Positions 17,615-51,618 of a stretch of 64,000 nt of DNA are shown one piece after another. This DNA comes from Bacteroidota bacterium (GTDB taxonomy: Bacteria; Eisenbacteria; RBG-16-71-46; SZUA-252): assembly GCA_050257045.1 (NCBI GenBank), contig JBLMWD010000093.1, positions 21,242 to 85,241 on the forward strand, read 5' to 3'. The position numbers and the translations under genes were made by a program. Every line of letters starts with the position of its first letter. Positions within the stretch are counted from its first letter, which is position 1. Below the pieces are notes generated by a model. That model was given only the letters and a program-made list of their open reading frames with translations, did no database searches and had not been told where the DNA came from.

Positions 17615-18631
17615 CTAGGCGTGCTTCCCGTCGACGCTCGGCGTGGCTTCGAGGAGTTTCGCGATGATGTCGAGGCTCGAGATGCCGTCCGCCTCCGCGG
17701 TGAAGTTGGGAATGATGCGGTGCCGGAGGACGGCGGGCGCGACCGCCTTCACGTCGTCGGCGCTCGGCGTCGGACGGCCGCCCAGGGCCGCGCGGGCCTT
17801 CGCCCCGAGAACGAGGTACTGCGCGGCGCGCGGGCCCGCGCCCCACGAGACCCAGTCGCGGATGAACGGCGCGGCCCCCTCGCCCGGCCTCGAGGCGCGC
17901 GCGAGGCGGACCGCGTAGCGCACGACATGCTCGGAGACGGGGATCCGGCGGACCAGGCGCTGGAGCTCCTGGATCCGGTCCACCGAGAGCACCGTCTTCG
18001 GGTGCGCCTCATAGGCGCTCGTCGTGTTCGTCACGATCTGCTCCTCCTCGGCGTCGCTCGGATAGCCGACCGAGATGTGGAACATGAAGCGGTCGAGCTG
18101 CGCCTCGGGCAGCGGGTAGGTCCCCTCGAACTCGATCGGGTTCTGCGTCGCGAGGACGAAGAACGGGAGCGCGAGCGGGTAGGTCGTTCCGCCCGCGGTC
18201 ACGCGGTACTCCTGCATGGCCTGCAGGAGCGCGGCCTGGGTCTTCGGCGGCGTGCGGTTGATCTCGTCGGCGAGGACCACGTTCGCGAAGATCGGCCCGT
18301 GGATGAACTTGAACGCGCGGCGCCCCGTGCCGGCCTCCTCCTCGAGGATCTCCGTCCCGGTGATGTCCGACGGCATGAGGTCGGGGGTGAACTGGATCCG
18401 GCTGAACTGGAGGTCCAGGATCGAGGCGAGCGTCGAGACGAGGAGCGTCTTTGCGAGCCCCGGCACCCCGACGATGAGACAGTGGCCGTTCGCGAAGAGG
18501 ACGGTCAGGATCTGCTCCACGACGACGTCCTGCCCGACGATCACCTTCCGCAGCTCGGTCAGGATCTCGGACCGCGCCCGGCTCAGCTCTTCGAGCAGCC
18601 GGACGTCGCCGGTTGCCGTGGATTGCGTCAT
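17615..18631 (-). CDS. MoxR-family AAA+ ATPase
   Basis: Track ORF of 338 aa with Walker A GVPGLAKT, Walker B LADEINR and the MoxR signature. An AGGAG SD lies 8 nt upstream of the ATG. Confidence 0.9.
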   Translation of the reverse strand: MTQSTATGDVRLLEELSRARSEILTELRKVIVGQDVVVEQILTVLFANGHCLIVGVPGLAKTLLVSTLASILDLQFSRIQFTPDLMPSDITGTEILEEEAGTGRRAFKFIHGPIFANVVLADEINRTPPKTQAALLQAMQEYRVTAGGTTYPLALPFFVLATQNPIEFEGTYPLPEAQLDRFMFHISVGYPSDAEEEQIVTNTTSAYEAHPKTVLSVDRIQELQRLVRRIPVSEHVVRYAVRLARASRPGEGAAPFIRDWVSWGAGPRAAQYLVLGAKARAALGGRPTPSADDVKAVAPAVLRHRIIPNFTAEADGISSLDIIAKLLEATPSVDGKHA

Positions 18632-18800
18632 GAATGGCTCCTGGGTGATGCGCCATGAAGGCGGGGCCCACTAAAAAGCCGCGCCGGTATGCTCCCTTTC
18701 GCGAAACGCCTGTGCATAACTGGCCCGGTGCTCGTCAATCGGCCAATCGCAAACTGCTGGTGCGGCGTCGGTTCACACGTTGTCCACCGAGAATACCGAG

Positions 18801-18809
18801 TTATCCACA
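18801..18809 (+). promoter_or_regulatory. Consensus DnaA box TTATCCACA 8 bp past the parB stop, in the moxR promoter region
   Basis: Exact 9/9 match to the DnaA box consensus. A related TTGTCCACC lies at 18779..18787. Confidence 0.5.
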
Positions 18810-18816
18810 ACGGGAC

Positions 18817-19746
18817 TCAACGGTGCGCCGTCGCTCCGCCGATTTCCCGGAGCATGCCGAGGATCCGGTCCAGCTCCTCTTCCGTATGGTACTCGATCAG
18901 GATGCTCCCCGACCCGCCGCGGCGGCGGGTCAGCCTCACCTTGGCGCCCATCACCCTCATCAACTCATCTTCCAGCGCCATGAGTTCCGCGGAAAACGCG
19001 CGGCGAGGGGAGCGCCTCGTCCGGGCGGCCCGCGGCGCGCCCGACCGGCGGATCCGCTCCTCGAGGTCGCGCACCGACCATCCGTGGGAAGCGGCCGTGG
19101 TCGCGAGGTCGGTCTGCTGCTTCGGGGTCGCGAGGGCGAGGAGAGCTCGCCCATGCCCCGCGCTGAGGGAGCCGGATTCCATCAGTTGCTGCACTTCCTG
19201 TGGTAAGTTGTTGAATCGAATCGTGTTCGAAACAGTGGATCGATCCTTCCCGACGCGCTGCCCGATTTCCTCGTGCTGAAGACCGTATTCCGTTGCGAGT
19301 CGGTAATAAGCGCGCGCTTCGTCGATCGGATTCAGATTCTCGCGCTGGATGTTCTCGATGAGCGCGATCAGGAGCGATTCGCGATCCGTGAGCGGACGGA
19401 TGATGGAGGGGATCGCCGCAAGGCCGGCTTCCCGCGCGGCCAGGAACCGCCGCTCTCCCGCCACCAGTTGATACCCGTCGCCGGCGGGCCGGAGAAGAAC
19501 GGGCTGGAGGACGCCGCGCTCCCGGATCGAGGAGGCCAGCTCCTGGATCGCGGCCGGATCGAACTGGGACCGCGGCTGCGACGGATTGCGGACGATCTTG
19601 CCGAGCGGGATGTGCTGGATATCTCCGGATCGGACCTCTCCCTGCCGGGGGTCGGCCGGGCGCGGCTCCGGAACCACCGAAACCTCCCGTTCGACCGCGG
19701 CCGGAATCAATGCCTCGAGCCCCCGACCAAGCGCCTTTCTAACCAC
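18817..19746 (-). CDS. parB: Chromosome partitioning protein ParB
   Basis: Track ORF trimmed to GTG 19746 (VVRKALGRGLEALIP...), with a GGAGG SD 9 nt upstream. It has ParB box motifs (GERRFLAAREAGL) and an HTH. The start overlaps the parA stop by 8 nt. Confidence 0.85.
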   Translation of the reverse strand: MVRKALGRGLEALIPAAVEREVSVVPEPRPADPRQGEVRSGDIQHIPLGKIVRNPSQPRSQFDPAAIQELASSIRERGVLQPVLLRPAGDGYQLVAGERRFLAAREAGLAAIPSIIRPLTDRESLLIALIENIQRENLNPIDEARAYYRLATEYGLQHEEIGQRVGKDRSTVSNTIRFNNLPQEVQQLMESGSLSAGHGRALLALATPKQQTDLATTAASHGWSVRDLEERIRRSGAPRAARTRRSPRRAFSAELMALEDELMRVMGAKVRLTRRRGGSGSILIEYHTEEELDRILGMLREIGGATAHR

Positions 19747-20500
19747 GTTCCAACACCTCCCTCGCCAAGTTGACGTAGCTCGTGGCACCCGCGCACTGAG
19801 GATCATAGATGACGACCGGCTTCCCGAAGCTGGGCGCCTCGCTCAGGCGCACGTTGCGTGGGATGACGGTTCGATAGACGCGCTCCGCGAAGAAACGACG
19901 GGTCTCCTCCAGGACCTGCTGCGACAGGTTTAGCCGGTTATCGTACATGGTCAGCAGAACGCCTTCGATCTGGAGGTCCGGGTTGAGGCCCTGTTGCACC
20001 AGGCGGATCGCGCCCAGGAGATGGCTCAACCCTTCGAGCGCGTAGTATTCGCACTGCACGGGGACGAGGACCGAGCGCGCCGCGGTCAGCGCATTGATGG
20101 TCAGGAAGCCGAGCGAGGGAGGCGCGTCGATAAGGATGAAATCGAAGTCACGCTCCACCTCGTGCAGCGCATCCTTGAGCCGGTACTCGCGGCGGTCCAC
20201 CCCGACCAGCTCCACTTCCGCACCCACCAGCCGCTGGCCGGAGGGGACGAGCGTGAGCCCCGGCACTTCGGTCTCCATCGCGACGTCCCGGATCGAGGCG
20301 TGCCCGGTGAGCACGTCGTAGATCCCCCGCGCCACCTTCAGTCCCGGATAGCCGAGACCGCTGCCCGCGTTCCCCTGGGGATCGAGGTCGATCAGGAGCA
20401 CCTTGCGGCCCGCGAGCGCGAGCGAGGCCGCGAGATTCACCGCCGTGGTCGTCTTCCCGACGCCACCCTTCTGGTTCGCTACCGCTACCGTCCTTGGCAT
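19739..20500 (-). CDS. parA: Chromosome partitioning ATPase ParA (Soj)
   Basis: 253 aa from ATG 20500 (MPRTVAVANQKGGVGKTTTAVNLAA...), with the deviant Walker A KGGVGKTT. Confidence 0.9.
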   Translation of the reverse strand: MPRTVAVANQKGGVGKTTTAVNLAASLALAGRKVLLIDLDPQGNAGSGLGYPGLKVARGIYDVLTGHASIRDVAMETEVPGLTLVPSGQRLVGAEVELVGVDRREYRLKDALHEVERDFDFILIDAPPSLGFLTINALTAARSVLVPVQCEYYALEGLSHLLGAIRLVQQGLNPDLQIEGVLLTMYDNRLNLSQQVLEETRRFFAERVYRTVIPRNVRLSEAPSFGKPVVIYDPQCAGATSYVNLAREVLERG

Positions 20501-20595: not shown

Positions 20596-20611
20596 ATGTT
20601 TCACGTGAAAC
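20596..20611. promoter_or_regulatory. parS centromere-like site (15/16 match to TGTTTCACGTGAAACA)
   Basis: Sequence TGTTTCACGTGAAACG lies 95 bp upstream of the parA start. Confidence 0.85.
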
Positions 20612-20988
20612 GTGGCGGTATTTTGCTGTGAACACGTGCGTTGCCCCGGAGAGCCCGAAACTAACCTGTGCGACGCGAGCGAGGCGCGCTTTGCGCCCCC
20701 GTGCGGTTGTACTGGTCTCAAGTCACAACGAACGCGAAGCTCTTTAGGTCGTGGGATTGGGGAGTAGAAGCGGCTACGAGCCGAGGCCCTTGGTGGGGTT
20801 GGTTCGACAACATCTCCCAGGAGATGTTGTCGCGTGCCAATCTGTCGCGGATCCATCCGAATCGGACGCGGCCAGCTGGTTCAACGGAACAGGAGTTCGC
20901 CCGCCTGCGGGCGGGCGCATATCCGTGAAACACGGAGTTAGTTTCGAGGTCTCCGGGGTAACGAACGATTTTCTAGGGATTTACGGCC

Positions 20989-21004
20989 ATGTTTCACGTG
21001 AAAC
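20989..21004. promoter_or_regulatory. parS centromere-like site, perfect 16/16 palindrome TGTTTCACGTGAAACA
   Basis: Exact consensus parS lies 16 bp downstream of the rsmG stop. Confidence 0.9.
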
Positions 21005-21019
21005 ATGCGCCATGCCGCC

Positions 21020-28261: not shown

Positions 28262-28396
28262 TCAGACGGTGAGACGTTTGCGGCCCCGGTCGCGGCGGCG
28301 CTTCAGGACCGCGCGGCCGCCGCGGGTGCTCATGCGCTCGCGGAAGCCGTGGACCTTCTTCCGGCGGCGGTTGTGCGGCTGGAACGTGCGCTTCAC
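28262..28396 (-). CDS. rpmH: 50S ribosomal protein L34
   Basis: Manual translation from GTG 28396 gives [44 protein letters not shown] (44 aa), near-identical to the universal L34. It is absent from the track, presumably because it is under the length cut-off. A GAGG SD is upstream. Confidence 0.85.
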
Positions 28397-28741
28397 GGTG
28401 ATGCCTCGTGCTGTTGGAAGTGGAGATCGAGTTCGTCGACGAGTGGGGGAGTCTAACCGACGCTCTGTACGCGGTCAAGGACGAGCGCGTCGCCGGATCG
28501 GACGCGGCGTCTTCAACAATTTCGTTGCGGAGCCGCAACGCACGGACGTAGAGTGCGCCCCTCGGCGAACGTCAGACGCGATTCCCTCTGGTCGCGGCGA
28601 ACGCCCGTTGACCTTCCCGGCGCGCTCGTGGCGCGCCTTCAATGAAAGTCGAAAAAAAATGTCGTCGGAACGCGCGCTGCCCGACATCGCGTTTTCGGGG
28701 CGTAACGGAACTACACGCAATCCGTTACGCCCCTGCTATTT

Positions 28742-28750
28742 TGTGGATAA
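28742..28750 (-). promoter_or_regulatory. Consensus DnaA box (TGTGGATAA = TTATCCACA) in the dnaA promoter, with a second degenerate box at 28754..28762
   Basis: There is a 9/9 match 49 bp upstream of the dnaA ATG, followed by TGTGGATTG (7/9). This is the typical dnaA autoregulatory arrangement. Confidence 0.7.
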
Positions 28751-28798
28751 GTGTGTGGATTGTGCGTGGAGTGGGTGTGGTCAAGTGGGGATAGGGAA

Positions 28799-30268
28799 AT
28801 GATCGAAAAAGCTGCCGTCGATCTGTGGGAACGCGCACTCGGAACCATCCAGGACAGCATGTCGCCGCAAGCCTACGACACGTGGTTCCGGTCGCTCCGG
28901 CCGGTGGCGCTGAACGGCGCGCTCGTGTTGGAGGTTCCGAGCCAGTTCTACGTGGACTGGCTCGACCAGCACTACCGCGCGCTGATCGAGGCGTCGGTCG
29001 CGACCGCGGCCGGCGAAACGATCCGCGTCAAGTTCCAGGTTCGCGAAGAGGAGCCCGAGGCCCTTCTCGCCGCCGCTCCCGAGCTCGCGGTGAGCGGGGC
29101 CGGGATCGCGGGCTCCGGCGGCCCGCCCCCGTTCCGGTCGACCGCGATCGGATCGCCGGGCGCTTCCGACCCCGGCTGGAACATCGGGATCACGCCGAAC
29201 CGCCAAAGTGGAACGAGCGGATGGAGCGGACAGCTCCCGTCGCGTGACGAGAGCGCGCTCTTTCCGCTCAACACGTTCGAGACGTTCGTGGTCGGCAACG
29301 GCAATCAGTTCGCGCACGCCGTCTGCCAGGCCGTCGCGCAGAGCCCCGGGGAGCGCTACAACCCGCTCTTCCTCTACGGCGGCGTCGGCCTCGGGAAGAC
29401 GCACCTCATGCACGCGATCGGGCACTACGTCCGCGCGCAGCGCAAGCACGCGAAGGTCTTCTTCGTGTCCGCCGAGAAGTTCATGAACGAGATGATCTAC
29501 GCGATCCAGCACGCCACGACGCTCGAGTTCAAGGCGCGCTACCGCTCCGCGGATCTCCTCCTCATCGACGACATCCAGTTCCTCGAGGGGAAGGAATCGA
29601 CCCAGGAGGAGTTCTTCCACACGTTCAACGCCCTCCACGACCAGCACCGCCAGATCGTGCTCACGAGCGACGGGCCGCCGAACGCGATGACCGCGCTCGA
29701 GGAGCGGCTCGTCTCGCGCTTCTCCTGGGGCGTGGTGGCCGATCTCCAGCCGCCCGATCTCGAGACCCGCGTCGCCATCGTGAAGAAGAAGGCCGAGCTG
29801 AACGGCCGCGTCGTGCCGAACGAAATCGCGCTCCTCCTCGCGAGCAACATCAAGAACAACATCCGCGACCTCGAGGGCTCGCTCGCGCGTCTCCTCGCCT
29901 TCGCCGACCTCACCAACTCGGAGCTCACGGTCGATTTCGCGCAGGACGTGCTCCGCGATCAGATCAAGCCGGACCTCGCCCGGTTCGACGTGCACGACAT
30001 CCAGCGCGTCGTGGCGCGCCACTTCAACGTCACCGAGGAGTCGCTGCGCGGGAAGCGGCGCACCGACACGATCGCCTTCCCGCGGCAGATCGGCATGTAC
30101 ATCGCGCGGACGATCACCGACCTCTCGCTCGCCGACATCGGCGCGAAGTTCGGGGGGCGCGACCACACGACGGTTCTCCATGCCTGCCAGAAGATCGAGG
30201 CGCTCATCACCAGCGACCCCGAGATGCGCGGCGTGGTCGAGGAGTTGATGGCGCAGATCACCGCCTAA
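28799..30268 (+). CDS. dnaA: Chromosomal replication initiator protein DnaA
   Basis: Track ORF trimmed to ATG 28799 (MIEKAAVDLWERALGTIQDSMSPQAYDTWF...). It has an AAA+ core (LFLYGGVGLGKTHLMHAIG), the sensor motifs, and the C-terminal DNA-binding signature (GGRDHTTVLHACQKIE). Confidence 0.9.
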   Translation: MIEKAAVDLWERALGTIQDSMSPQAYDTWFRSLRPVALNGALVLEVPSQFYVDWLDQHYRALIEASVATAAGETIRVKFQVREEEPEALLAAAPELAVSGAGIAGSGGPPPFRSTAIGSPGASDPGWNIGITPNRQSGTSGWSGQLPSRDESALFPLNTFETFVVGNGNQFAHAVCQAVAQSPGERYNPLFLYGGVGLGKTHLMHAIGHYVRAQRKHAKVFFVSAEKFMNEMIYAIQHATTLEFKARYRSADLLLIDDIQFLEGKESTQEEFFHTFNALHDQHRQIVLTSDGPPNAMTALEERLVSRFSWGVVADLQPPDLETRVAIVKKKAELNGRVVPNEIALLLASNIKNNIRDLEGSLARLLAFADLTNSELTVDFAQDVLRDQIKPDLARFDVHDIQRVVARHFNVTEESLRGKRRTDTIAFPRQIGMYIARTITDLSLADIGAKFGGRDHTTVLHACQKIEALITSDPEMRGVVEELMAQITA

Positions 30269-30269
30269 A

Positions 30270-30750
30270 TCGGGCGGCTCACATCAGGCCGGTCATTGAA
30301 CGTGGTCTACCCGGAAGAGGCGTCGCGGATGCGGCGCCTCTTCTTTTTTCATTTGGGGAAAGGGTGTGGAAAACCCGGTGCCAGGACCCGGCCGGCGCCG
30401 TCCGGTGGGCGCCTGTGGATCGGCGGGAGCTTATCCCCAGCCCGGTACGAGCCGCCGCGCCGGCGGCAATGGTCGTGGATTTGGTTGGGGTACAAATACT
30501 TACCCTTTTCGGCCCTCTTCTCGTCCCCACCCTCCACCGCCCCTACAACCACTGCATCTATTCATGGAACCTATTCGTTCTTGGAGCAGCCGAACTCCGT
30601 GGAAAACCAGGCTCTTGAACGACCCTTTAGTGTTGTTCGAAACCCCTCGAAAACCTATAATTCGGAGTGACGACCAAGCCACCCCGACGCGACCGCAACC
30701 ACCAATACCTAAAGGGACTTAGACACATGACAATCGCACAGGACGTGGCC
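30270..30750. other. Candidate oriC: DnaA-box cluster plus AT-rich DNA unwinding element in the dnaA-dnaN spacer
   Basis: Four DnaA-box-like 9-mers occur at 30364..30372 (TGTGGAAAA), 30413..30421 (TGTGGATCG), 30430..30438 (TTATCCCCA) and 30473..30481 (CGTGGATTT). A markedly AT-richer tract follows at about 30480..30700, which is unusual in a 70% GC genome. The rpmH/dnaA gene-strand switch is 1.5 kb to the left. Confidence 0.6.
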
Positions 30751-31887
30751 ATGAAATGCTCCGTCGCCCAGACGGAGCTGTTGCAGGCGTTAGGCCTCAT
30801 CTCGAGCGCCGTTCCGAGCCGGACGACGCTCCCGGTGCTCTCCAACATCCTCGTGGAAGCGACCGGCGAAGGTTTGCAGATGACCGCCACCGACCTGGAC
30901 CTTTCGGTCACCACGCGTGCGATGGCGGACGTCAAGGCCGAGGCGGCTCTCACCGTCCCGGCGAAGAAGCTCTTCGAGCTCGTGCGGAAGCTGCCCAAGG
31001 AAGAGCTGAAGCTCGAATCGAAGGACCTCACGATGAACGTCGTGAGCAAGACGGGGCGTTTCAAGTTCCTGTGCATTCGTCCCGAGGAGTTTCCGGCCCG
31101 CGTCACGGTCGCGCCCGATACGGCGCTCACGGTGGACGCGAAGCAGCTCGAGCGGATGATTCGCCGCACGATCTACGCGGTCTCCACCGACGAGACGCGT
31201 CCCGCGCTGAACGGCGCGCTGCTCCAGATCGCCGAAGGGGAGATCCGGCTCGTCGCGACGGACGGCCATCGCCTCGCGCGCGCCACGCTGAAGCACCCGG
31301 GCGCGGTGAAGGGAGCGCTCAAGGGCGACGTGATCGTTCCATTGAAGGCCCTGCACCACATTCAGCGGCTCGTCACGGAGGGCGCGGATCCAGTGCACAT
31401 CGAATTGTCCAAGAATCACGCGCGCTTCACGGTCGGCCAGACGTCACTCACGACGAAGCTGATCGAGGGGCCGTTTCCGAACTATGAACAGGTGCTGCCC
31501 AAGAACAACAACAAGCATCTCCACGTGAAGACGGGAGACCTCGCCGCCTCCCTCGATCGCGTCTCCGTATTCTCGGACAGCCTCACGCGGCAGGTGAAGT
31601 TCTCGCTGGAACGCAACCGGCTGAGCCTCATCGTGCAGACACCCGACCAAGGCGAAGCCACCGAAGCGCTCGACGTGCGCTACGACGCCGAGGATCTCGA
31701 GATCGGCTACAACGCCGGCTACCTGCTCGACATCCTGCGAACGGTGGACGCGGAGGAGGTGATCATGCAGCTCAACACGCCTGTGACGGCCGGCCTCCTC
31801 GTGCCGGCGCCGCCGGCGGACGGAAAGGGAACTCCGGCCCTGGAAGGGCTCCTCTGCCTGGTCATGCCCCTCCGGCTGGCCGGCTGA
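30751..31887 (+). CDS. dnaN: DNA polymerase III beta sliding clamp
   Basis: Track ORF trimmed to ATG 30751 (MKCSVAQTELLQALGLISSAV...), the typical DnaN N-terminus. An alternative ATG lies at 30727. It has a three-domain clamp fold pattern and ends ...LCLVMPLRLAG. Confidence 0.9.
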   Translation: MKCSVAQTELLQALGLISSAVPSRTTLPVLSNILVEATGEGLQMTATDLDLSVTTRAMADVKAEAALTVPAKKLFELVRKLPKEELKLESKDLTMNVVSKTGRFKFLCIRPEEFPARVTVAPDTALTVDAKQLERMIRRTIYAVSTDETRPALNGALLQIAEGEIRLVATDGHRLARATLKHPGAVKGALKGDVIVPLKALHHIQRLVTEGADPVHIELSKNHARFTVGQTSLTTKLIEGPFPNYEQVLPKNNNKHLHVKTGDLAASLDRVSVFSDSLTRQVKFSLERNRLSLIVQTPDQGEATEALDVRYDAEDLEIGYNAGYLLDILRTVDAEEVIMQLNTPVTAGLLVPAPPADGKGTPALEGLLCLVMPLRLAG

Positions 31888-31888
31888 C

Positions 31889-32973
31889 GTGCGGCTCCAG
31901 AGCCTCGAGCTCCGCAATTTCCGAAATCACCGCGAGGCGAGGACCCCGGTCGGGGACGGCAGCACGCTCATCCTCGGTCCGAACGGCTCCGGCAAGACGA
32001 ACTGGATCGAGGCCGCCGTGCTCCTTTCCCTGGGGCGCTCGTTCCGCGGCGCGCGGGACCGGGAGCTGATCCGCAACGGCGCCGACGCGTTCGAGATTCG
32101 CGGCGTCGTGCTCGGGCGCGGCGGCGTGCGGCGCGAGCTGATCGCCCGCGGCTCGCGCGAGGGGACGCGGGAGGTGCGCGTGGACGGAGAGGCTCTGCCC
32201 CGGCTCACGGACCTGCTCGGGCGGTTCCCGACGGTTCACTTCTCCGTGGACGACGTCTCGGTCTTCGGCGGCGGCGTCCCCGAGCGGCGCCGATTCCTCG
32301 ACGTGGCGCTCTGCCAGCTCGAGCCCGCGTACGTGGGCTCGCTCCGCGACTACACGGCGGCGCTGAAGCAGCGGAACCGGCTGCTCACGCAGAGCGGACG
32401 GTCTCCGGTGCCCGACGAGGAGTTCCGGGTCTGGGAGACGATCCTCGGCCGCGCGGGCGCCGAGCTCGACCGGCGGCGCGAGGGGCTCGCGCAGGATCTC
32501 CACGCGACGATGCGCGACCTCGCCGGGCGCGTGGACGAGGAGCTCGTGCCGCTCCTCGAGTACGTGAGCGCGGGGACCGGGACGCCCGAGGAGCGCGCCG
32601 CCCGGCTCGCCGCGATGCGCAGCCGTGACGCGCGGCTCGGATGGACGGCCGAGGGTCCCCACCGGGCCCGGCTCGTCTGCCGGATCCGCGGGATGGAGCT
32701 CGCCGAGGGCGCCTCGCGCGGCTACTCGCGGCTCTACTCGATCCTCCTGCGGCTCGCGCTCGCGCGGGTGCTCGAGGAGCGGCTCGACGAGGCCCCGGTC
32801 GTCCTGCTCGACGATCCCGAGTCGGAGCTCGACGCGCGCTGGATCGGACCGATCCTGGCGCTCGTTCCCGAGTCGAGCCAGCTGATCGTGACGGCATGCC
32901 GCGCGCTCACGTCGACGCCCGCGCGCGTAGCGTCGCTCCCGATCGAGTCGCTCGCCGCGTTTGCGGGGGCGGC

Positions 32974-32977
<4 letters not shown>
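31889..32977 (+). CDS. recF: DNA replication and repair protein RecF
   Basis: Track ORF of 362 aa with a GTG start 1 nt after the dnaN stop. It has Walker A GPNGSGKTN and an SMC-like signature. Confidence 0.9.
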
Positions 32978-35296
<2,319 letters not shown>

Positions 35297-35364
35297 TCCG
35301 CTTTCGGACCGCCCGGCCGCGCGTCTGAGCGCCGGAAGGTCCTCACGGAGGGAGAACCGAACGC

Positions 35365-37803
35365 ATGGCCATGCGTGAGAAGGTGATTCCGATCTACGTC
35401 GAAGACGAGATGCGGAACTCGTACATCGACTACTCGATGTCGGTCATCGTGTCGCGCGCGCTGCCCGACGTGCGGGACGGGCTGAAGCCCGTGCACCGCC
35501 GGGTGCTGATCGCGATGCGCGAGCTGAACCTCCTCCACGACCGGCCCTTCCGGAAATCCGCGAAGATCACCGGCGACGTGACCGGCAACTACCACCCGCA
35601 CGGCACCGTGGCCGTCTACGAGACGATGGTCCGTCTCGCCCAGCCCTTCTCGATGCGCTACCCGCTCGTGGACGGCCAGGGGAATTTCGGCTCGGTCGAC
35701 GGCGACGCCCCGGCGGCGGAGCGGTACACGGAGGCGCGCCTCACCGAGTTCGCGGAGGAGATGCTCCGCGACATCGAGAAGGACACGGTCGACACGCGCC
35801 CGAACTACGACGAGTCGCGCGAGGAGCCGGTCGTCCTCCCGTCGGCGGTCCCGAACCTGCTCGTGAACGGCTCGTCGGGGATCGCGGTCGGGATGGCGAC
35901 CAACGTTCCGCCGCACAACCTGCGCGAGATCGTCGACGCCACCGTCCACGTGATCGACAACCCCGACTGCGCGATCGAGGACCTGCTGCGGATCGTGCAG
36001 GGGCCCGACTTCCCGACCGCGGGCATCATCTACGGCCGCCAGGGGATCCTCGACTGCTACACCACGGGGCGCGGGCACATCACGGTCCGCTCGGCCGCGA
36101 CGATCGAGGAGTACAAGAAGGACCGCGAAGCGATCATCGTCACCGAGATCCCCTACATGGTGAGCAAGTCGGCCCTCCTCGAGAAAATCGCCGACCTCGT
36201 GAAGGACGGCACCCTCGACGGGATCTCCGACCTGCGCGACGAGTCCGACCGCGAAGGGATGCGGATCGTGATCGAGCTGAAGCGCGACGCCACCGCGCGC
36301 GTGATCCTGAACCAGCTCTTCAAGCACACGCAGATGCAGACCACCTTCGGCGCGAACATGCTGGCCCTGGTCGGGAACCGACCGCAGACGCTCACGCTGA
36401 AGGAGATGATCCAGCACTACATCGCGCACCGGCAGGAGGTGGTGGTGCGGCGGACCCGCTTCGACCTGAACGAGGCGGAGAAGCGGGCGCACATCCTCGA
36501 GGGCTTCAAGATCGCCCTCGACCACATCGACGAGATCGTGGCCCTGATCAAGGCGTCGGCCAACGTGGAGGCGGCGCGCCAGGGGCTCATGGCGACTTTC
36601 GGGCTGTCCGAGATCCAGGCGAACGCGATCCTCGAGATGCGCCTCTCGCGTCTCACCGGCCTCGAGCGTCAGAAGATCGAGGACGAGTACCTCGAGGTGA
36701 TCCAGCTCATCGAGCGCCTCCGCGCGATCCTCGAGAGCCCGGCCAAGGTGCTCGGGCTCATCAAGGACGAGCTGAGCCAGGTGAAGGAGAAGTTCGGCGA
36801 CGAGCGCCGCACGCGCATCGAGTCGGCCACCGGCGAGTTCGGGGTGGAGGATCTGATCGCCGAGGAGGACATGGTGATCACGATCAGCCACGCCGGCTAC
36901 ATCAAGCGCCTCCCGGTGACGACCTACCGGAGCCAGCGGCGCGGCGGGCGCGGCATCACCGGCGCGGGGACGAAGGAAGAGGACTTCATCCAGCACCTCT
37001 TCATCGCCTCGACGCACAGCTACATCCTCGTCTTCACCGACAAGGGGCGCGTCCACTGGCTCAAGGTGCACGAGATCCCGCAGGCCGGCCGCACCGCGAA
37101 GGGGAAGGCGGTCGTCAACCTGGTCGAGATGTCGCAGCGCGAGCGGGTGGCCGCCGTCCTCCCGGTGAAGCAGTTCGACGACAAGCACTTCATCCTGATG
37201 ACCACGGCGCGCGGCGTGGTGAAGAAGACGCCGCTCTCGGCCTACTCGAACCCGCGCCGCGGCGGCATCGTGGGGATCGGCGTGGACGGCGAGGACACGC
37301 TCATCGACGCCGTGCTCACCGACGGAACGCAGGAGATCATCCTCTCCAAGAAGGACGGGAAGGCGATCCGCTTCAAGGAGACCGACGTCCGCCCGATGGG
37401 GCGCACGGCGCACGGCGTCCGGGGCGTGACGATCGAGGGGGACGACGCGGTGATCGGCGTGATCGCGGTGCGTCGCGAGGCCTCGCTCCTCGTCGTGACC
37501 GAGAACGGCTACGGGAAGCGCAGCCCGGTCAGCGAGTACCGCATCACGGGCCGCGGCGGGAAGGGGATCATCTCCATCCAGACGAACGATCGGAACGGGC
37601 GCGTGGTCGCGGCGCTCGAGGTCCTGCCCGACGACGAAGTGATGCTGATCACGCGCGGCGGGATGGTGATCCGCACGCAGGTCGCGGGGATCTCCGAGAT
37701 CGGGCGGAACACGCAAGGGGTGCGCCTCATCAATCTGGAGCCGGGGGATCAGCTCATCGACGTGGCCAAGGTGGAAGAGTCGGAAGAAGGCGAGGAGGCG
37801 TAG
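35365..37803 (+). CDS. gyrA: DNA gyrase subunit A
   Basis: Track ORF of 812 aa with the active-site region AMRYTE-like (RYTEARL), the QRDR-type segment [12 protein letters not shown] and C-terminal beta-pinwheel repeats. It ends in an acidic EEGEEA tail. Confidence 0.95.
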
Positions 37804-37804
37804 G

Positions 37805-38476
37805 CTGGATCCACGCATCCCGACGTCGACCGTCCGGCGTCTCTCGTCGTATTACCGCGTCCTCGAGGAGCTCGAGACCGAGGGGCAGCGGACCGTCTCC
37901 TCGCAGGGGCTCGCGCGCGAGAGCGGGGTGACCCCCGCCCAGGTCCGGAAGGACCTCTCCTACTTCGGGAACTTCGGGAAGCGAGGCCTGGGCTACGGCG
38001 TCGCGCGCCTGAAGAAGGAGATCCGCCTCATCCTGGGGCTGAACCGCCGGTGGCGCGTCGCCCTGGTCGGCGCCGGGAACATGGGTTCGGCCCTCTTCTC
38101 GTACAAGGAATTCCACCGCCAGGGCTTCGACTTCGTCGCGGTCTTCGATGTGAGCTCCGACCGCGTGGGGCAGGTGTGGCGCGACCTCACCGTCCGCCAT
38201 CTCGACGACCTCGAGGCCGAGACGCTCCGCCTCGGGATCGAGATCGGCGTGATCGCCGTCCCCGCGCGCTCGGCGCAGAGCGTGGCCGACCGGCTCGTGT
38301 CGGCGGGGATGCGCGGCATCCTCAACTTCGCCCACCGCCGCATCCAGGTCGCGCCCGAGACCGCGCTCCGCACCGTGAACCTCTCCATCGACCTGGAGAG
38401 CCTCGCCTTCGAGATCAAGGCGCTCCACGTGAAGGGCACGCGCACGCGCCGCCGCCGCCGCGCCGCGGGGCTCTGA
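37805..38476 (+). CDS. rex: Redox-sensing transcriptional repressor Rex, apparently initiating at a non-canonical CTG
   Basis: The track ORF (GTG 37928) begins inside the conserved Rex winged-helix. The same frame is open upstream to 37670 and encodes LDPRIPTSTVRRLSSYYRVLEELETEGQRTVSSQGLARESGVTPAQVRKDLSYFGNFGKRGLGYGV, the canonical Rex N-terminus. This stretch contains no ATG/GTG/TTG. CTG 37805 lies 6 nt after a perfect GAGGAGG SD and 2 nt after the gyrA stop. A Rossmann domain LVGAGNMGSAL follows. Confidence 0.65.
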   Translation: MDPRIPTSTVRRLSSYYRVLEELETEGQRTVSSQGLARESGVTPAQVRKDLSYFGNFGKRGLGYGVARLKKEIRLILGLNRRWRVALVGAGNMGSALFSYKEFHRQGFDFVAVFDVSSDRVGQVWRDLTVRHLDDLEAETLRLGIEIGVIAVPARSAQSVADRLVSAGMRGILNFAHRRIQVAPETALRTVNLSIDLESLAFEIKALHVKGTRTRRRRRAAGL

Positions 38477-38518
38477 TCGCGGGCCGAAGCCGCCCGTGAA
38501 GCCGCCGCGCGACCCATC

Positions 38519-39439
38519 GTGAGCCGCGCGGACCTCGCCCTCCTCCTCATCTGCGCGATCTGGGGGACCACGTTCGCGCTCCTGCGCGAGGCGCTGCGCG
38601 TCCTCACCCCCGCCGAGCTGATCGCCCTCCGATTCACGATGGCCACGATCGTGCTCGCCCTGGCCTCGGCGCGGCACTTTCGGGGCTTCCGGCTCTCGTG
38701 GCTCAAGGACGGGCTCTGGATCGGTGTCTGGCTCGCGATCGGATACCTCACGCAGGCGATCGGGCTCCGCACGGTGCCCCCCTCCCGCTCGGCCTTCATC
38801 ACGTCCATGAGCATCGCCTTCGTCCCGTTCATCGCGTTCGCGCTGCTGCGCACGCCGCCGGTCCTGGGCGAATCCGTGGGCGTGGCGCTCGCGGTGGCGG
38901 GGCTCGTCCTCTTCTCGTCGGATGCCGGCTTCTCCCTGCGCGGGGGCGAGCTCTGGACCCTCCTGGGGGCCGCGGCGTTCGCGATGCAGATCGTCACGAC
39001 CCACGTCGCCGGGAAGCGGAGCCCGCCCCTGCCGATCTCGGTGATCCAGACGGCGGCGGGCGCGGCGGCGGGCTGGACGCTCGTGCTCGCGGCGGGCGGG
39101 ATGCGGGCCGAGCCGCGCGCGATCCCCTGGGGCATCCTCCTCTACCTCGCCGTCGCCGCGACGGCCTTCATCATCGTGCTCCAGACCTGGGCGCTCGCGC
39201 GCACGTCGTCGGTGAAGGCGGGGGTGCTCTACGCGACCGAGCCGATCTTCGCGGCCATCTTCGCGATCTCGTTCTTCGGCGATCGGATGACGCCGCGGGA
39301 GGTGGCGGGCGCGGCGCTCATCCTCGCCGGCGTCGTGGCGAGCGAGCTCTGGCGGCCGCTGCGCGCGCGATGGGAGGCGCGGCGCCTCAGCGAGGCGACG
39401 GCCGGGCCGGGCTCCCCGGAAGAGCGCGGGCGAACATGA
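38519..39439 (+). CDS. EamA/DMT family transporter (drug/metabolite exporter)
   Basis: Track ORF of 306 aa with a GTG start. It is 10-TM hydrophobic with two EamA-like repeats. Confidence 0.75.
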   Translation: MSRADLALLLICAIWGTTFALLREALRVLTPAELIALRFTMATIVLALASARHFRGFRLSWLKDGLWIGVWLAIGYLTQAIGLRTVPPSRSAFITSMSIAFVPFIAFALLRTPPVLGESVGVALAVAGLVLFSSDAGFSLRGGELWTLLGAAAFAMQIVTTHVAGKRSPPLPISVIQTAAGAAAGWTLVLAAGGMRAEPRAIPWGILLYLAVAATAFIIVLQTWALARTSSVKAGVLYATEPIFAAIFAISFFGDRMTPREVAGAALILAGVVASELWRPLRARWEARRLSEATAGPGSPEERGRT

Positions 39440-50865: not shown

Positions 50866-50940
50866 CGTTGGATTCTACACCAGGGATCGAACCCCAAGAA
50901 CGCGCTTAGGGTAGCGGGTTTCGGGGCCGATAGGAGACGC

Positions 50941-51618
50941 ATGCGCCGTTTCTCCCCCGGCGGGGGTCTCCTCGCCGTTCTCGCGCTCGCGTTCGCCGGA
51001 TCCGCCCGCGCCGGGACCATCGAAGGCTCGGTCACGCTCACGCCGGCCGATCTCTCCTTTCGCGGAGGGATGAAGCCGAACGCCTACGTCGGGCAGCTCA
51101 GCGGAAGCGCGATGCGCGCCGACGCGCCGGTTCCGTCCGACACGACGTACGGCGTCGCCTACGTCGCCGACGTCGGAACGGCCGGCGACGCAGAGCCGGA
51201 GCCGCTCCTCCTCGATCAGAAGGGACAGCGCTTCATCCCGCGGATCCTCGCGGTCGTCGCGGGCGAGGCGGTCGACTTCCGGAACAGCGACAACGTCTAC
51301 CACAACGTCTTCTCGTACTCGCCGCCCAAGCGCTTCGACCTGGGGCGTTATCCGCGAGGCCGCTCGAAGCGGCTCGTCTTTCCGAAGCCGGGGCTGATCC
51401 AGGTCTTCTGCGACATCCATTCCGACATGCGCGCCGACATCGTGGTGGTGCCGAGCCGGCGGTACGCGTACCTGAACGCGGACGGCCGCTTCCGGATCGA
51501 GGGCGTCCCCGCCGGCAAGCACACCCTCGTCGTCTGGCTGCCGCGCCGGGGCGAGCGGAGCGGCGAGGTCGAGGTGCCGTCGGCGTCACCCGCGGAATTC
51601 GTGCTGGGCGCCGAGTGA
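50941..51618 (+). CDS. Secreted cupredoxin (type-1 blue copper) domain protein
   Basis: This is the C-terminal 225 aa of the track ORF, starting at ATG 50941 (MRRFSPGGGLLAVLALAFAGSARA signal peptide). It carries a plastocyanin-like ligand set, HNVF ... CDIHSDM (His, Cys-x2-His-x2-Met). Its stop overlaps the downstream histidine kinase GTG as GTGA. Confidence 0.6.
   Translation: MRRFSPGGGLLAVLALAFAGSARAGTIEGSVTLTPADLSFRGGMKPNAYVGQLSGSAMRADAPVPSDTTYGVAYVADVGTAGDAEPEPLLLDQKGQRFIPRILAVVAGEAVDFRNSDNVYHNVFSYSPPKRFDLGRYPRGRSKRLVFPKPGLIQVFCDIHSDMRADIVVVPSRRYAYLNADGRFRIEGVPAGKHTLVVWLPRRGERSGEVEVPSASPAEFVLGAE

What the first reader, a model, noticed from the sequence alone, without database searches (positions are those of the whole stretch)
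30270..30750. Candidate oriC in the dnaA-dnaN spacer: DnaA-box cluster followed by an AT-rich unwinding region
The 480-bp spacer is non-coding (only short low-GC3 ORFs). It contains four DnaA-box-like 9-mers between 30364 and 30481, then about 200 bp that are conspicuously AT-rich for this genome (e.g. GGTACAAATACTTACCCTTTTCG, CTGCATCTATTCATGGAACCTATTCG, AAACCTATAATTCGG). Gene orientation flips 1.5 kb to the left at rpmH/dnaA, and parAB-parS sit 8 to 10 kb away. All of this is classic for a bacterial origin.
Basis: partly seen in the sequence, partly recalled or inferred. Interest (0 to 1): 0.5.

Follow-up and report, generated by a model that had tools for sequence, protein, structure and literature searches.

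The report
Chromosome replication origin upstream of dnaN
The non-coding DNA between dnaA and dnaN of this uncultured high-GC bacterium (Candidatus Eisenbacteria-like) has the conserved layout of a standard bacterial replication origin, so it is an ordinary origin found in a phylum where none has been described.

Summary

The spacer (30269-30726) starts with the dnaA terminator (30313-30351). It ends with the dnaN promoter (TTGTTC-17-TATAAT, 30633-30661) and a near-invariant leader. The origin candidate lies between them (30354-30606).

- **Boxes:** seven DnaA boxes are conserved in 15 relatives. Their spacing is fixed to within 2 bp although the DNA between them varies freely.
- **Unwinding module:** two co-oriented boxes (30521-30538), a 4-bp GC spacer and seven period-3 CTA-type repeats (30543-30563) form a basal unwinding system (BUS) with DnaA-trios. 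Orientation and geometry match Bacillus and Clostridioides. The window's own trios are the most degenerate copy.
- **Stability:** the least stable 100-bp and 200-bp duplex stretches of the 64 kb lie here.
- **DnaA:** it keeps the trio-capture residues.
- **Linkage:** where relatives have genes inserted between dnaA and dnaN, this module stays with dnaN. A second box array (28742-28794) stays with dnaA.

GC skew in the window follows gene strand and decides nothing. There is no experimental evidence. Verdict: a new member of a known kind, of modest interest.

The parts
30313..30351 (+). Intrinsic terminator of dnaA: a 14-bp stem, 4-nt loop and T-run. It belongs to dnaA, not to the origin.
   Evidence: Found by the terminator scan. 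Relatives with dnaA adjacent keep the stem through compensatory changes such as GGGCG..CGCCC to GAGCG..CGCTC. It is absent where another gene lies upstream of the module (L087, L089).
30354..30373 (-). DnaA boxes a (TGGGGAAAG, 30354-62) and b (TGTGGAAAA, 30365-73). They are tandem with an 11-bp period, in the TGTGGATAA orientation.
   Evidence: Box b has 1 mismatch. Column identity is 0.84 and 0.83, against 0.49 in the next spacer. Positions are fixed at about -188 and -177 from trio 1 in 15 relatives.
30414..30439 (.). Inverted pair of DnaA boxes: c (TGTGGATCG, 30414-22; TGGGGACAA in relatives) and d (TTATCCCCA, 30431-39).
   Evidence: Found. Column identity is 0.86 and 0.85. Positions are -126 to -129 and -109 to -112 in all 15 sequences.
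30521..30538 (+). Two abutting co-oriented low-affinity DnaA boxes: f (TCGTCCCCA) and g (CCCTCCACC). These are the box pair of the unwinding module.
   Evidence: Box f is 1 mismatch from the lineage motif TTRTCCMCA. The box g core TCCAC is conserved, always at -13 from trio 1. It reads ATATCCACA in L097 and ATATCCACC in L089.
30539..30542 (+). 4-bp GC spacer (GCCC).
   Evidence: It reads [GAC][CAG]CC in all 15 sequences. It matches the 'GC-rich region (4 bp on average)' of the published BUS search rules.
30543..30563 (+). DnaA-trio array. The top strand reads CTA CAA CCA CTG CAT CTA TTC. The DnaA-bound bottom strand reads 3'-GAT GTT GGT GAC GTA GAT AAG-5'.
   Evidence: Column identity is 0.88 with 11 of 21 columns invariant. 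The first base is C in trios 1-6 in nearly every sequence. The middle base is T in 8 to 15 of 15 sequences. Relatives read CTA CTA CTA CTG CTT CTA TTC. The region is not coding. The same pattern retrieves Firmicutes BUS elements.
30564..30597 (.). Low-stability flank next to the trios (ATGGAACCTATTCGTTCTTGGAGCAGCCGAACTC). This is the likely first-melted region (DUE).
   Evidence: 30543-30660 is 46.6% GC against 70.1% for the window. The least stable 100-bp stretch of the window starts at 30559. The function is inferred.
30598..30606 (-). DnaA box h (CGTGGAAAA), conserved on the far side of the melted region and about 50 bp upstream of the dnaN -10.
   Evidence: 2 mismatches. Column identity is 0.88. 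It lies at +54 to +56 from trio 1 in 12 of the 15 sequences; my pattern did not match it in L087, L094 and L096, where the alignment shows TGTGGAAAT at the same column.
30633..30661 (+). dnaN promoter: -35 TTGTTC (30633-38), a 17-bp spacer and -10 TATAAT (30656-61).
   Evidence: CCTATAMT is invariant in all 15 sequences. Coordinates were checked. The tool's strict scan did not list it because the -35 matches only 3 of 6. Function is inferred from consensus and conservation.
30677..30726 (+). Near-invariant dnaN 5' leader (GCCACCCCGACGCGACCGCAACC...AAAGGGACTTAGACAC).
   Evidence: 27 of 48 columns are invariant and identity is 0.87. It is more conserved than the dnaA 3' end. A 1-nt indel in L089 and L097 shows that it is not coding.
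28742..28794 (-). Second DnaA-box array (cluster A). It has five co-oriented boxes at 10-12 bp spacing, ending 4 bp before the dnaA ATG. It is probably the dnaA autoregulatory operator and possibly an auxiliary origin half.
   Evidence: It holds a perfect TGTGGATAA. It is conserved in all relatives and stays with dnaA when dnaA and dnaN are separated. No trios lie beside it, from my reading of the sequence.

Best explanation
The region 30354-30606, directly upstream of the dnaN promoter, is the chromosomal replication origin (oriC) of this Candidatus Eisenbacteria-like bacterium.

Proposed mechanism:
1. DnaA binds a phased set of double-stranded boxes (a, b, c, d, f, g, h).
2. From the co-oriented pair f/g (30521-30538), ATP-DnaA extends across a 4-bp GC spacer as a filament on the bottom strand. 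It captures the 3'-GA-5' dinucleotides of seven DnaA-trios (30543-30563).
3. This opens the adjacent, least stable duplex (about 30543-30660).
4. The replicative helicase is then loaded, presumably with the DciA encoded four genes downstream.

The rest of the spacer is not origin. 30313-30351 is the dnaA terminator. 30633-30726 is the dnaN promoter and leader.

Shown here: the sequence elements, their conservation, their spacing, their orientation and the duplex-stability minimum. Inferred: binding, unwinding and origin firing.
For: 1. **Box enrichment.** All 5 matches to TTATCCACA with <=1 mismatch in 64 kb fall in three intergenic sites, two of them here (1.24 expected). With the lineage motif TTRTCCMCA, 9 of 16 hits fall in those three small clusters.
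2. **Phylogenetic footprint in 15 non-redundant relatives.** DnaA identity to the window is 68-82% where the whole gene lies in the locus; two loci carry no dnaA. Boxes and trios show 0.77-0.88 column identity (box f is weaker at 0.65), against 0.48-0.56 in the intervening DNA.
3. **Fixed spacing.** Every element stays within 2 bp of its position relative to trio 1 in the sequences where it is found: -188, -177, -128, -111, -13 and +55.
4. **BUS architecture.** The layout is box, box, 4-bp GC spacer, then CTA-type trios. The distal box is 13 bp from the trios, the modal value in the published survey. Relatives read CTA CTA CTA CTG CTT CTA TTC, and L097 has ATATCCACA-CCCC-(CTA)3 CCA (CTA)2 TTC. 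The strand and direction match the C. difficile trio 5'-CACCTACTACTATTACTACTATGA-3'.
5. **Positive control.** A pattern taken from this block retrieves textbook Firmicutes BUS elements. In 5 unrelated loci they lie in the dnaA-dnaN spacer, on the same strand.
6. **Period-3 conservation is not coding.** Several relatives have no start codon or an immediate stop, in every frame.
7. **Captured guanine.** The invariant first-position C is the guanine that B. subtilis DnaA captures. The window's DnaA keeps N187, I190, I193 and E228, and has K for R202.
8. **Duplex stability.** The least stable 100-bp and 200-bp stretches of the window start at 30559 and 30478.
9. **Linkage.** The module stays immediately upstream of dnaN when 1.5, 2.5 or 5.8 kb of genes separate dnaA and dnaN.
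10. **Neighbourhood.** rpmH, dnaA, dnaN, recF, dciA, gyrB, gyrA, parAB and 2 parS sites are present, with a gene-strand switch.
Against: - The window's own trio array is the weakest of the 15. Only 4 of 7 triplets have the canonical central base, and there is no run of three directly after the spacer.
- Its two proximal boxes are 3 and 4 mismatches from TTATCCACA. The window copy therefore fails the published BUS search rule when the E. coli motif is used (criteria).
- The 'AT-rich' flank is only about 47-50% GC.
- GC skew within the window tracks gene strand (-0.022 +/- 0.007). The side-of-origin term is marginal (+0.012 +/- 0.006) and confounded, because every gene to the left is on the minus strand.
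- A better-matching box array (cluster A, with a perfect box) lies upstream of dnaA.
- The metagenome relatives were collected with a dnaN promoter and leader anchor. Only L087, L088 and L089 test the dnaN linkage without bias.
- There is no experimental evidence for any member of this lineage.
Confidence: 0.8

Rival explanations
1. The origin is bipartite. The box array upstream of dnaA (28742-28794) and the module upstream of dnaN act together through DnaA-mediated looping. Unwinding occurs at the dnaN-side module, as in Bacillus subtilis, Clostridioides difficile and Helicobacter pylori. This refines the best explanation rather than excluding it.
For: Two conserved DnaA-box clusters flank dnaA, which is the layout of Firmicutes and H. 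pylori origins. Cluster A holds the only perfect box near dnaA. Its five co-oriented boxes at 10-12 bp spacing suit a DnaA oligomer.
Against: In relatives the two clusters are separated by 1.5 to 5.8 kb of inserted genes. In L088 no dnaN or dnaN-side module lies within 10 kb, so close pairing is not conserved. Cluster A ends 4 bp before the dnaA start codon. It also follows a conserved terminator-like RNA hairpin. That position fits a dnaA operator.
Confidence: 0.2
2. The conserved DNA is only the regulatory region of dnaN: a promoter, DnaA-box operators and a leader. The chromosome origin lies elsewhere in the genome.
For: An invariant -10 element and a near-invariant leader lie within the same conserved block. 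The block always travels with dnaN. Box h sits at a position typical of a promoter-proximal regulator site. No replicon-scale evidence places the origin here.
Against: A promoter does not explain seven boxes held at fixed phasing over 250 bp. It also does not explain a box pair, GC spacer and period-3 GA-type repeat in canonical BUS geometry 113 bp upstream of the -10. The gene-strand switch, the parS sites and the whole origin-proximal gene set are here.
Confidence: 0.1
3. The origin is the rpmH-dnaA spacer (cluster A, 28397-28798). The dnaA-dnaN spacer boxes are accessory.
For: It has a perfect TTATCCACA box and four more co-oriented boxes. It lies exactly at the gene-strand switch. A short A-run at 28636-28665 is among the least stable 30-mers.
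Against: No trio-like repeat lies on the side of the boxes where their orientation requires it. A GC-rich conserved hairpin occupies that position. The region is less unstable than the dnaN-side region at 100 and 200 bp. The array abuts the dnaA ribosome-binding site.
Confidence: 0.07

Closest known systems
Bacillus subtilis oriC incC region / basal unwinding system (DnaA-boxes 6 and 7, DnaA-trios, AT-rich region; Richardson 2016/2019, Pelliciari 2021/2023)
   Same: - It lies in the dnaA-dnaN spacer.
- Two co-oriented boxes point towards dnaN, followed by a short GC cluster and then 6-7 trios read 3'-GAT-5' on the bottom strand.
- The least stable DNA follows.
- The DnaA trio-capture residues are retained.
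   Different: - The boxes abut directly and are degenerate (a TCCCCA or TCCAC core).
- The flank is only about 47% GC.
- The window's trios have non-A central bases in 3 of 7 positions.
- The helicase loader is likely DciA, not DnaD, DnaB and DnaI.
- The module is not obligatorily linked to dnaA.
Clostridioides difficile oriC2 (PMC7561715)
   Same: The trio block 5'-CACCTACTACTATTACTACTATGA-3' has the same strand, direction and position, between the boxes and the DUE upstream of dnaN. A second box cluster lies upstream of dnaA.
   Different: In C. difficile both halves were needed for melting in vitro. Here the halves drift apart in relatives. Base composition is at the opposite extreme.
Actinobacterial oriC (Mycobacterium, Streptomyces) in the dnaA-dnaN spacer (from my own knowledge)
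   Same: These are high-GC genomes with the origin in the dnaA-dnaN spacer. They have many degenerate TTGTCCACA-type boxes and only a modestly AT-rich unwinding region.
   Different: Streptomyces origins carry many more boxes over about 1 kb. This origin is compact (about 250 bp, 7 boxes) and has a clear single BUS.
Escherichia coli oriC
   Same: DnaA boxes of both orientations are present at fixed phasing beside a DUE. DnaA binds one specific single strand.
   Different: E. coli oriC is translocated away from dnaA, uses 13-mers, IHF and GATC/SeqA control, and scores weakly for BUS. None of these features is seen here.

Membership tests
Basal unwinding system (BUS) of bacterial oriC | A DnaA box with <=2 mismatches to the standard or species-specific motif lies 0-16 bp from the trios. 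| tested here: inconclusive
   In the window, box g is 4 bp from the trios but 4 mismatches from TTATCCACA. Box f is 13 bp away with 3 mismatches, or 1 mismatch to the lineage motif TTRTCCMCA. At the homologous position, L097 has ATATCCACA (1 mismatch) and L089 has ATATCCACC (2 mismatches).
Basal unwinding system (BUS) of bacterial oriC | A second co-oriented box lies within 3 bp, and the more conserved box is about 10-13 bp from the trios. | tested here: met
   Boxes f and g abut with a 0-bp gap. Box f ends 13 bp before trio 1. This holds in 15 of 15 sequences, and 13 bp is the modal value in the published survey.
Basal unwinding system (BUS) of bacterial oriC | At least three consecutive trios carry a central adenine on the bound strand, directly after a short GC cluster. 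| tested here: inconclusive
   The window reads CTA CAA CCA CTG CAT CTA TTC. The central base is canonical in 4 of 7 trios. The only run of three (CTA TTC ATG) starts 19 bp from box g. Relatives have 7 consecutive canonical trios (L081, L085, L090, L091, L095) or 3+3 (L089, L097). The GC cluster is present in all.
Basal unwinding system (BUS) of bacterial oriC | The box-to-trio direction points to the unwinding region, with the trios on the strand that gives a 5' tail. | tested here: met
   The order on the top strand is TCCAC-type boxes, then 5'-CTA repeats, then the least stable DNA. This is the same as in C. difficile and in 5 Firmicutes loci recovered with the same pattern.
Basal unwinding system (BUS) of bacterial oriC | The DnaA residues that capture the trio dinucleotide are present (B. 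subtilis N187, I190, I193, R202, E228). | tested here: met
   The alignment to 8BTG gives N230, I233, I236, K245 (for Arg) and E271. Residue roles are taken from PMC10721633.
Basal unwinding system (BUS) of bacterial oriC | DnaA-dependent strand separation requires both the boxes and the trios. | not testable with these tools
   This needs purified DnaA and a strand-separation or P1/KMnO4 assay.
Bacterial chromosomal origin (Ori-Finder / DoriC criteria) | A cluster of at least 3 DnaA boxes lies in an intergenic region next to an indicator gene (dnaA or dnaN). | tested here: met
   Three boxes with <=2 mismatches lie within 75 bp, with more conserved degenerate ones, between dnaA and dnaN.
Bacterial chromosomal origin (Ori-Finder / DoriC criteria) | The site is the GC-skew or Z-curve switch point of the replicon. 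| tested here: inconclusive
   Only 64 kb is available. Skew follows the coding strand. The side-of-origin term has the expected sign but is marginal and confounded.
Bipartite oriC (Bacillus / Clostridioides / Helicobacter type) | Two DnaA-box clusters flank dnaA. | tested here: met
   Cluster A is 28742-28794 and the dnaN-side cluster is 30354-30606.
Bipartite oriC (Bacillus / Clostridioides / Helicobacter type) | The two halves are kept together across the lineage, as functional interdependence would predict. | tested here: not met
   The halves are separated by 1.5 kb (L087, L094, L096, L100), 2.5 kb (L101), 5.8 kb (L089) or more than 10 kb (L088).

The most novel reading that the evidence does not exclude
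In this candidate phylum the origin may be a self-contained cassette tied to dnaN rather than to dnaA. The near-invariant dnaN leader and first ten codons (30677-30756) are conserved even at synonymous sites. They could be part of the origin machinery itself, for example a DciA/helicase loading site or a coupling of dnaN transcription to origin opening, rather than a simple translational leader.
Probability: 0.1. Interest if true: 0.6.

Novelty: new member of a known kind. Interest (0 to 1): 0.3.

Why it matters
This gives a precise, testable origin map for an uncultured candidate phylum (Candidatus Eisenbacteria / Eiseniibacteriota) in which I found no described origin. It also adds an independent high-GC example to the claim that the box-pair plus DnaA-trio unwinding module is ancestral and widespread.

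The practical uses are modest:
- setting the origin coordinate of genomes assembled from metagenomes;
- anchoring growth-rate estimates based on read coverage (peak-to-trough ratio);
- supplying a compact DNA scaffold for DnaA unwinding assays.

Nothing here challenges current models of initiation.

Tried and rejected
- **Genome-contig scan with DnaA.** These loci later served as a negative and positive control set.
- **Exact look-up of the window's DnaA.** It is not on record.
- **Small ORF (Leu-rich peptide) behind the CTA period-3 pattern.** Rejected. No frame has a conserved start and stop, and 1-nt indels occur downstream.
- **Known RNA family in the spacer.** None found. No tRNAs are present.
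- **GC skew as a test of origin position.** Uninformative at 64 kb, because skew tracks the coding strand.
- **Structured RNA in the dnaN leader.** The consensus fold pairs GCCAC/GUGGC and GCGA/UCGC across the start codon. The folding energy is no better than shuffles (z = 0.18), and covariation is impossible to assess because the sequence is invariant.
- **Trio-like repeats next to boxes a, b, c, h and cluster A, in the direction their orientation requires.** None seen, from my reading of the sequence.
- **Pfam scan of the recF-gyrB gap for DciA.** It failed on the ORF I chose. tblastn with relatives' DciA located the gene at about 32974-33324.
- **Literature on an Eisenbacteria origin.** None found.

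Full report
**Setting**

The window is 70.1% GC. NCBIfam and Pfam scans give this gene order:
- minus strand: parB (18817-19806), parA, rsmG, mnmG, mnmE, jag, yidC, yidD, rnpA, rpmH (28262-28396);
- plus strand: dnaA (28799-30268), dnaN, recF, a DciA homologue (about 32974-33324), gyrB, gyrA.

Every gene from 1 to 28396 is on the minus strand, and every gene from 28799 to 39439 is on the plus strand. Two perfect parS sites (TGTTTCACGTGAAAC) lie at about 20597 and 20990. The closest named DnaA homologues are from Candidatus Eisenbacteria metagenome-assembled genomes, a candidate phylum. I found no paper on its origin.

**Checking the observation**

The relatives' conserved ATGACAATCG shows that dnaN starts at 30727. 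The spacer is therefore 30269-30726.

TTATCCACA with <=1 mismatch occurs only five times in 64 kb, against 1.24 expected. All five lie in three intergenic sites, two of them in this spacer: 30365 TGTGGAAAA and 30431 TTATCCCCA. 30414 TGTGGATCG has two mismatches.

The AT-rich claim holds. 30478-30677 is 50.5% GC. It is the least stable 200-bp duplex of the window, and 30559-30658 is the least stable 100 bp.

Two parts of the spacer are not origin. 30313-30351 is a strong intrinsic terminator for dnaA. 30633-30661 is a TTGTTC-17-TATAAT promoter followed by a leader for dnaN.

**Relatives**

The genome-contig scan was unhelpful. A protein search followed by contig look-ups gave loci with DnaA 68-81% identical to the window's. 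A metagenome scan anchored only on the dnaN promoter and leader gave twelve more loci. Fifteen non-redundant sequences upstream of dnaN were aligned.

Conservation is sharply punctate:
- boxes a, b, c, d, g and h and the repeat block have 0.77-0.88 column identity;
- box f has 0.65;
- the DNA between them has 0.48-0.56;

Despite this free sequence drift, the distances are fixed within 2 bp wherever an element is found. Relative to the first repeat, a is at -188, b at -177, c at -128, d at -111, g at -13 and h at +55. Phased boxes in otherwise unconstrained DNA are what an origin looks like, and are not expected of an ordinary promoter.

**The unwinding module**

From 30521 the top strand reads TCGTCCCCA CCCTCCACC GCCC CTA CAA CCA CTG CAT CTA TTC. 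Relatives read, for example:
- CCGTCCACA CCCC CTA CTA CTG CTT CTT CTA TTC (L081);
- ATATCCACA CCCC CTA CTA CTA CCA CTA CTA TTC (L097).

This is two co-oriented DnaA boxes, a 4-bp GC cluster and 6-7 repeats. On the bottom strand the repeats read 3'-GAT-5'. That is the basal unwinding system (BUS) with DnaA-trios defined in B. subtilis and surveyed across bacteria.

The published search rules describe a GC gap of about 4 bp and a modal 13-bp distance from the better box to the trios. Here the distance is exactly 13 bp. The strand and direction match the C. difficile trio 5'-CACCTACTACTATTACTACTATGA-3' in its dnaA-dnaN spacer.

As a positive control I used a regular expression taken from the Eisenbacteria block (CCTA[CG]N10-12CTATT). 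It hits once in every relative that includes the region and not at all in L088. In the 80 unrelated dnaA loci it hits nine times. Five of those hits are textbook Firmicutes BUS elements of the form TTATCCACA-TATTCACAC-GC-CTACTACTATTACTACTA-TTTTATA. They lie 100-250 bp downstream of dnaA, on the same strand.

The period-3 pattern is not coding. In each frame several relatives lack a start codon or meet a stop at once, and 1-nt indels follow.

The first base of trios 1-6 is invariant or nearly so: 15, 14, 15, 15, 15 and 15 of 15 sequences. It corresponds to the guanine that B. subtilis DnaA captures together with the central adenine.

The window's DnaA aligns without gaps to the B. subtilis cryo-EM chain through this region. 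It keeps N187, I190, I193 and E228, with Lys for R202.

**Weak points**

- The window's own copy is the most degenerate of the fifteen. Only four of seven trios have the canonical central base, and the two proximal boxes are 3 and 4 mismatches from the E. coli consensus. Judged alone by the published rule, it would not pass. It is called here by homology to better copies.
- The lineage evidently uses a TCC[A/C]CA core. TTATCCCCA, TGGGGACAA and TCGTCCCCA recur.
- The flank is only moderately AT-rich in absolute terms.
- GC skew cannot help. Gene by gene, skew follows the coding strand (-0.022 +/- 0.007). The side-of-origin term has the expected sign but is marginal (+0.012 +/- 0.006). It is confounded because all genes to the left share one strand.

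**Which cluster is the origin?**

A second array, cluster A, has five co-oriented boxes at 28742-28794, including a perfect TGTGGATAA. It ends 4 bp before the dnaA ATG and is equally conserved.

Cluster A has no trios on the side its orientation requires. That place is taken by a conserved 13-bp hairpin plus T-run (28697-28733). The hairpin is 98% paired in 12 sequences. It has two compensatory pairs and six G.U cells that are valid only on the plus strand, so it behaves like a transcript terminator or attenuator.

Natural rearrangements separate the two clusters:
- in L087, L094, L096 and L100 an M29 peptidase gene lies between dnaA and dnaN;
- in L101 the gap is 2.5 kb;
- in L089 the gap is 5.8 kb;
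- in L088 there is no dnaN within 10 kb.

In each case cluster A stays with dnaA, and the BUS-bearing module stays immediately upstream of dnaN. Only L087, L088 and L089 were found through DnaA, so only they are unbiased on this point.

I therefore read cluster A as the dnaA operator, and possibly an auxiliary origin half. I read the dnaN-side module as the site of unwinding. A strictly interdependent bipartite origin is unlikely, given how freely the halves separate.

**Mechanism**

*Inferred:* DnaA occupies the phased boxes. From boxes f/g an ATP-DnaA filament extends onto the bottom-strand trios and opens 30543 to about 30660. The helicase is then loaded, presumably with DciA. Box h and the outward-firing dnaN promoter border the bubble.

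*Shown:* the elements, their conservation, their geometry and the stability minimum.

*Not shown:* binding, melting or firing.

**Verdict**

This is an ordinary BUS-type oriC in a lineage where none has been described, so it is a new member of a known kind. My confidence that this is the origin is 0.8. Interest is modest (0.3).

Noticed in passing
window 28697-28798 (also L081-L091, L095, L100 upstream of dnaA): A conserved 13-bp hairpin plus T-run (GGGGCGTAACGGA-N11-TCCGTTACGCCCC-TTATTTT) lies immediately upstream of five co-oriented DnaA boxes. The boxes run up to the dnaA ribosome-binding site. The G.U wobbles and 2 compensatory pairs fit a plus-strand RNA terminator or attenuator in a long dnaA leader. 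A possible promoter (TTGCGG-18-TAGAGT) lies near 28525-28554. The layout suggests DnaA-controlled read-through or a roadblock, which I did not test.
   Followed up: partly
window 30677-30756: The dnaN leader and the first ten codons (MTIAQDVAMK) are nearly invariant at the nucleotide level across relatives, including synonymous sites. They are more conserved than the end of dnaA. A possible pairing of GCCAC/GUGGC and GCGA/UCGC encloses the ribosome-binding site and start codon. It has no energetic or covariation support.
   Followed up: partly
window 18711-18809 (L081 69-167, L085 25-123, L089 74-172): A third conserved DnaA-box site lies between parB and a MoxR-type AAA ATPase gene (17615-18631, minus strand). 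It comprises TGTGCATAA, TTGTCCACC and a perfect TTATCCACA. The 90-bp spacing of the outer boxes is identical in the relatives. No trios lie beside it. It may be a DnaA-regulated promoter or a titration site.
   Followed up: partly
window 20596-21006: Two perfect 16-bp parS palindromes (TGTTTCACGTGAAACA/G) and a half-site near 20924 lie in the 520-bp parA-rsmG spacer. The spacer is 58% GC.
   Followed up: no
window 53432-53700: This is the second least stable duplex stretch of the window. It lies in the 590-bp gap between a sensor histidine kinase gene (50934-53423) and lon (54013-56838). I did not examine it.
   Followed up: no
whole window: The coding strand is C-rich. GC3 skew is negative in 34 of 37 genes whatever their strand or position. 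Local GC skew therefore mirrors gene orientation, and the cumulative curve has a local maximum, not a minimum, near dnaA.
   Followed up: partly
L087 11339-12457, L089 11385-16836, L088 11358 onwards: Relatives carry unrelated genes inserted between dnaA and dnaN: an M29 peptidase, an HI0933-like flavoprotein, DUF899 and others. One relative (L088) has no dnaN within 10 kb of dnaA.
   Followed up: yes
window 32974-33324: A DciA homologue (67-77% identical to relatives' PF05258 proteins) fills the recF-gyrB gap and overlaps the ORF start I first assumed for gyrB (33311). The gyrB start probably lies further downstream.
   Followed up: partly
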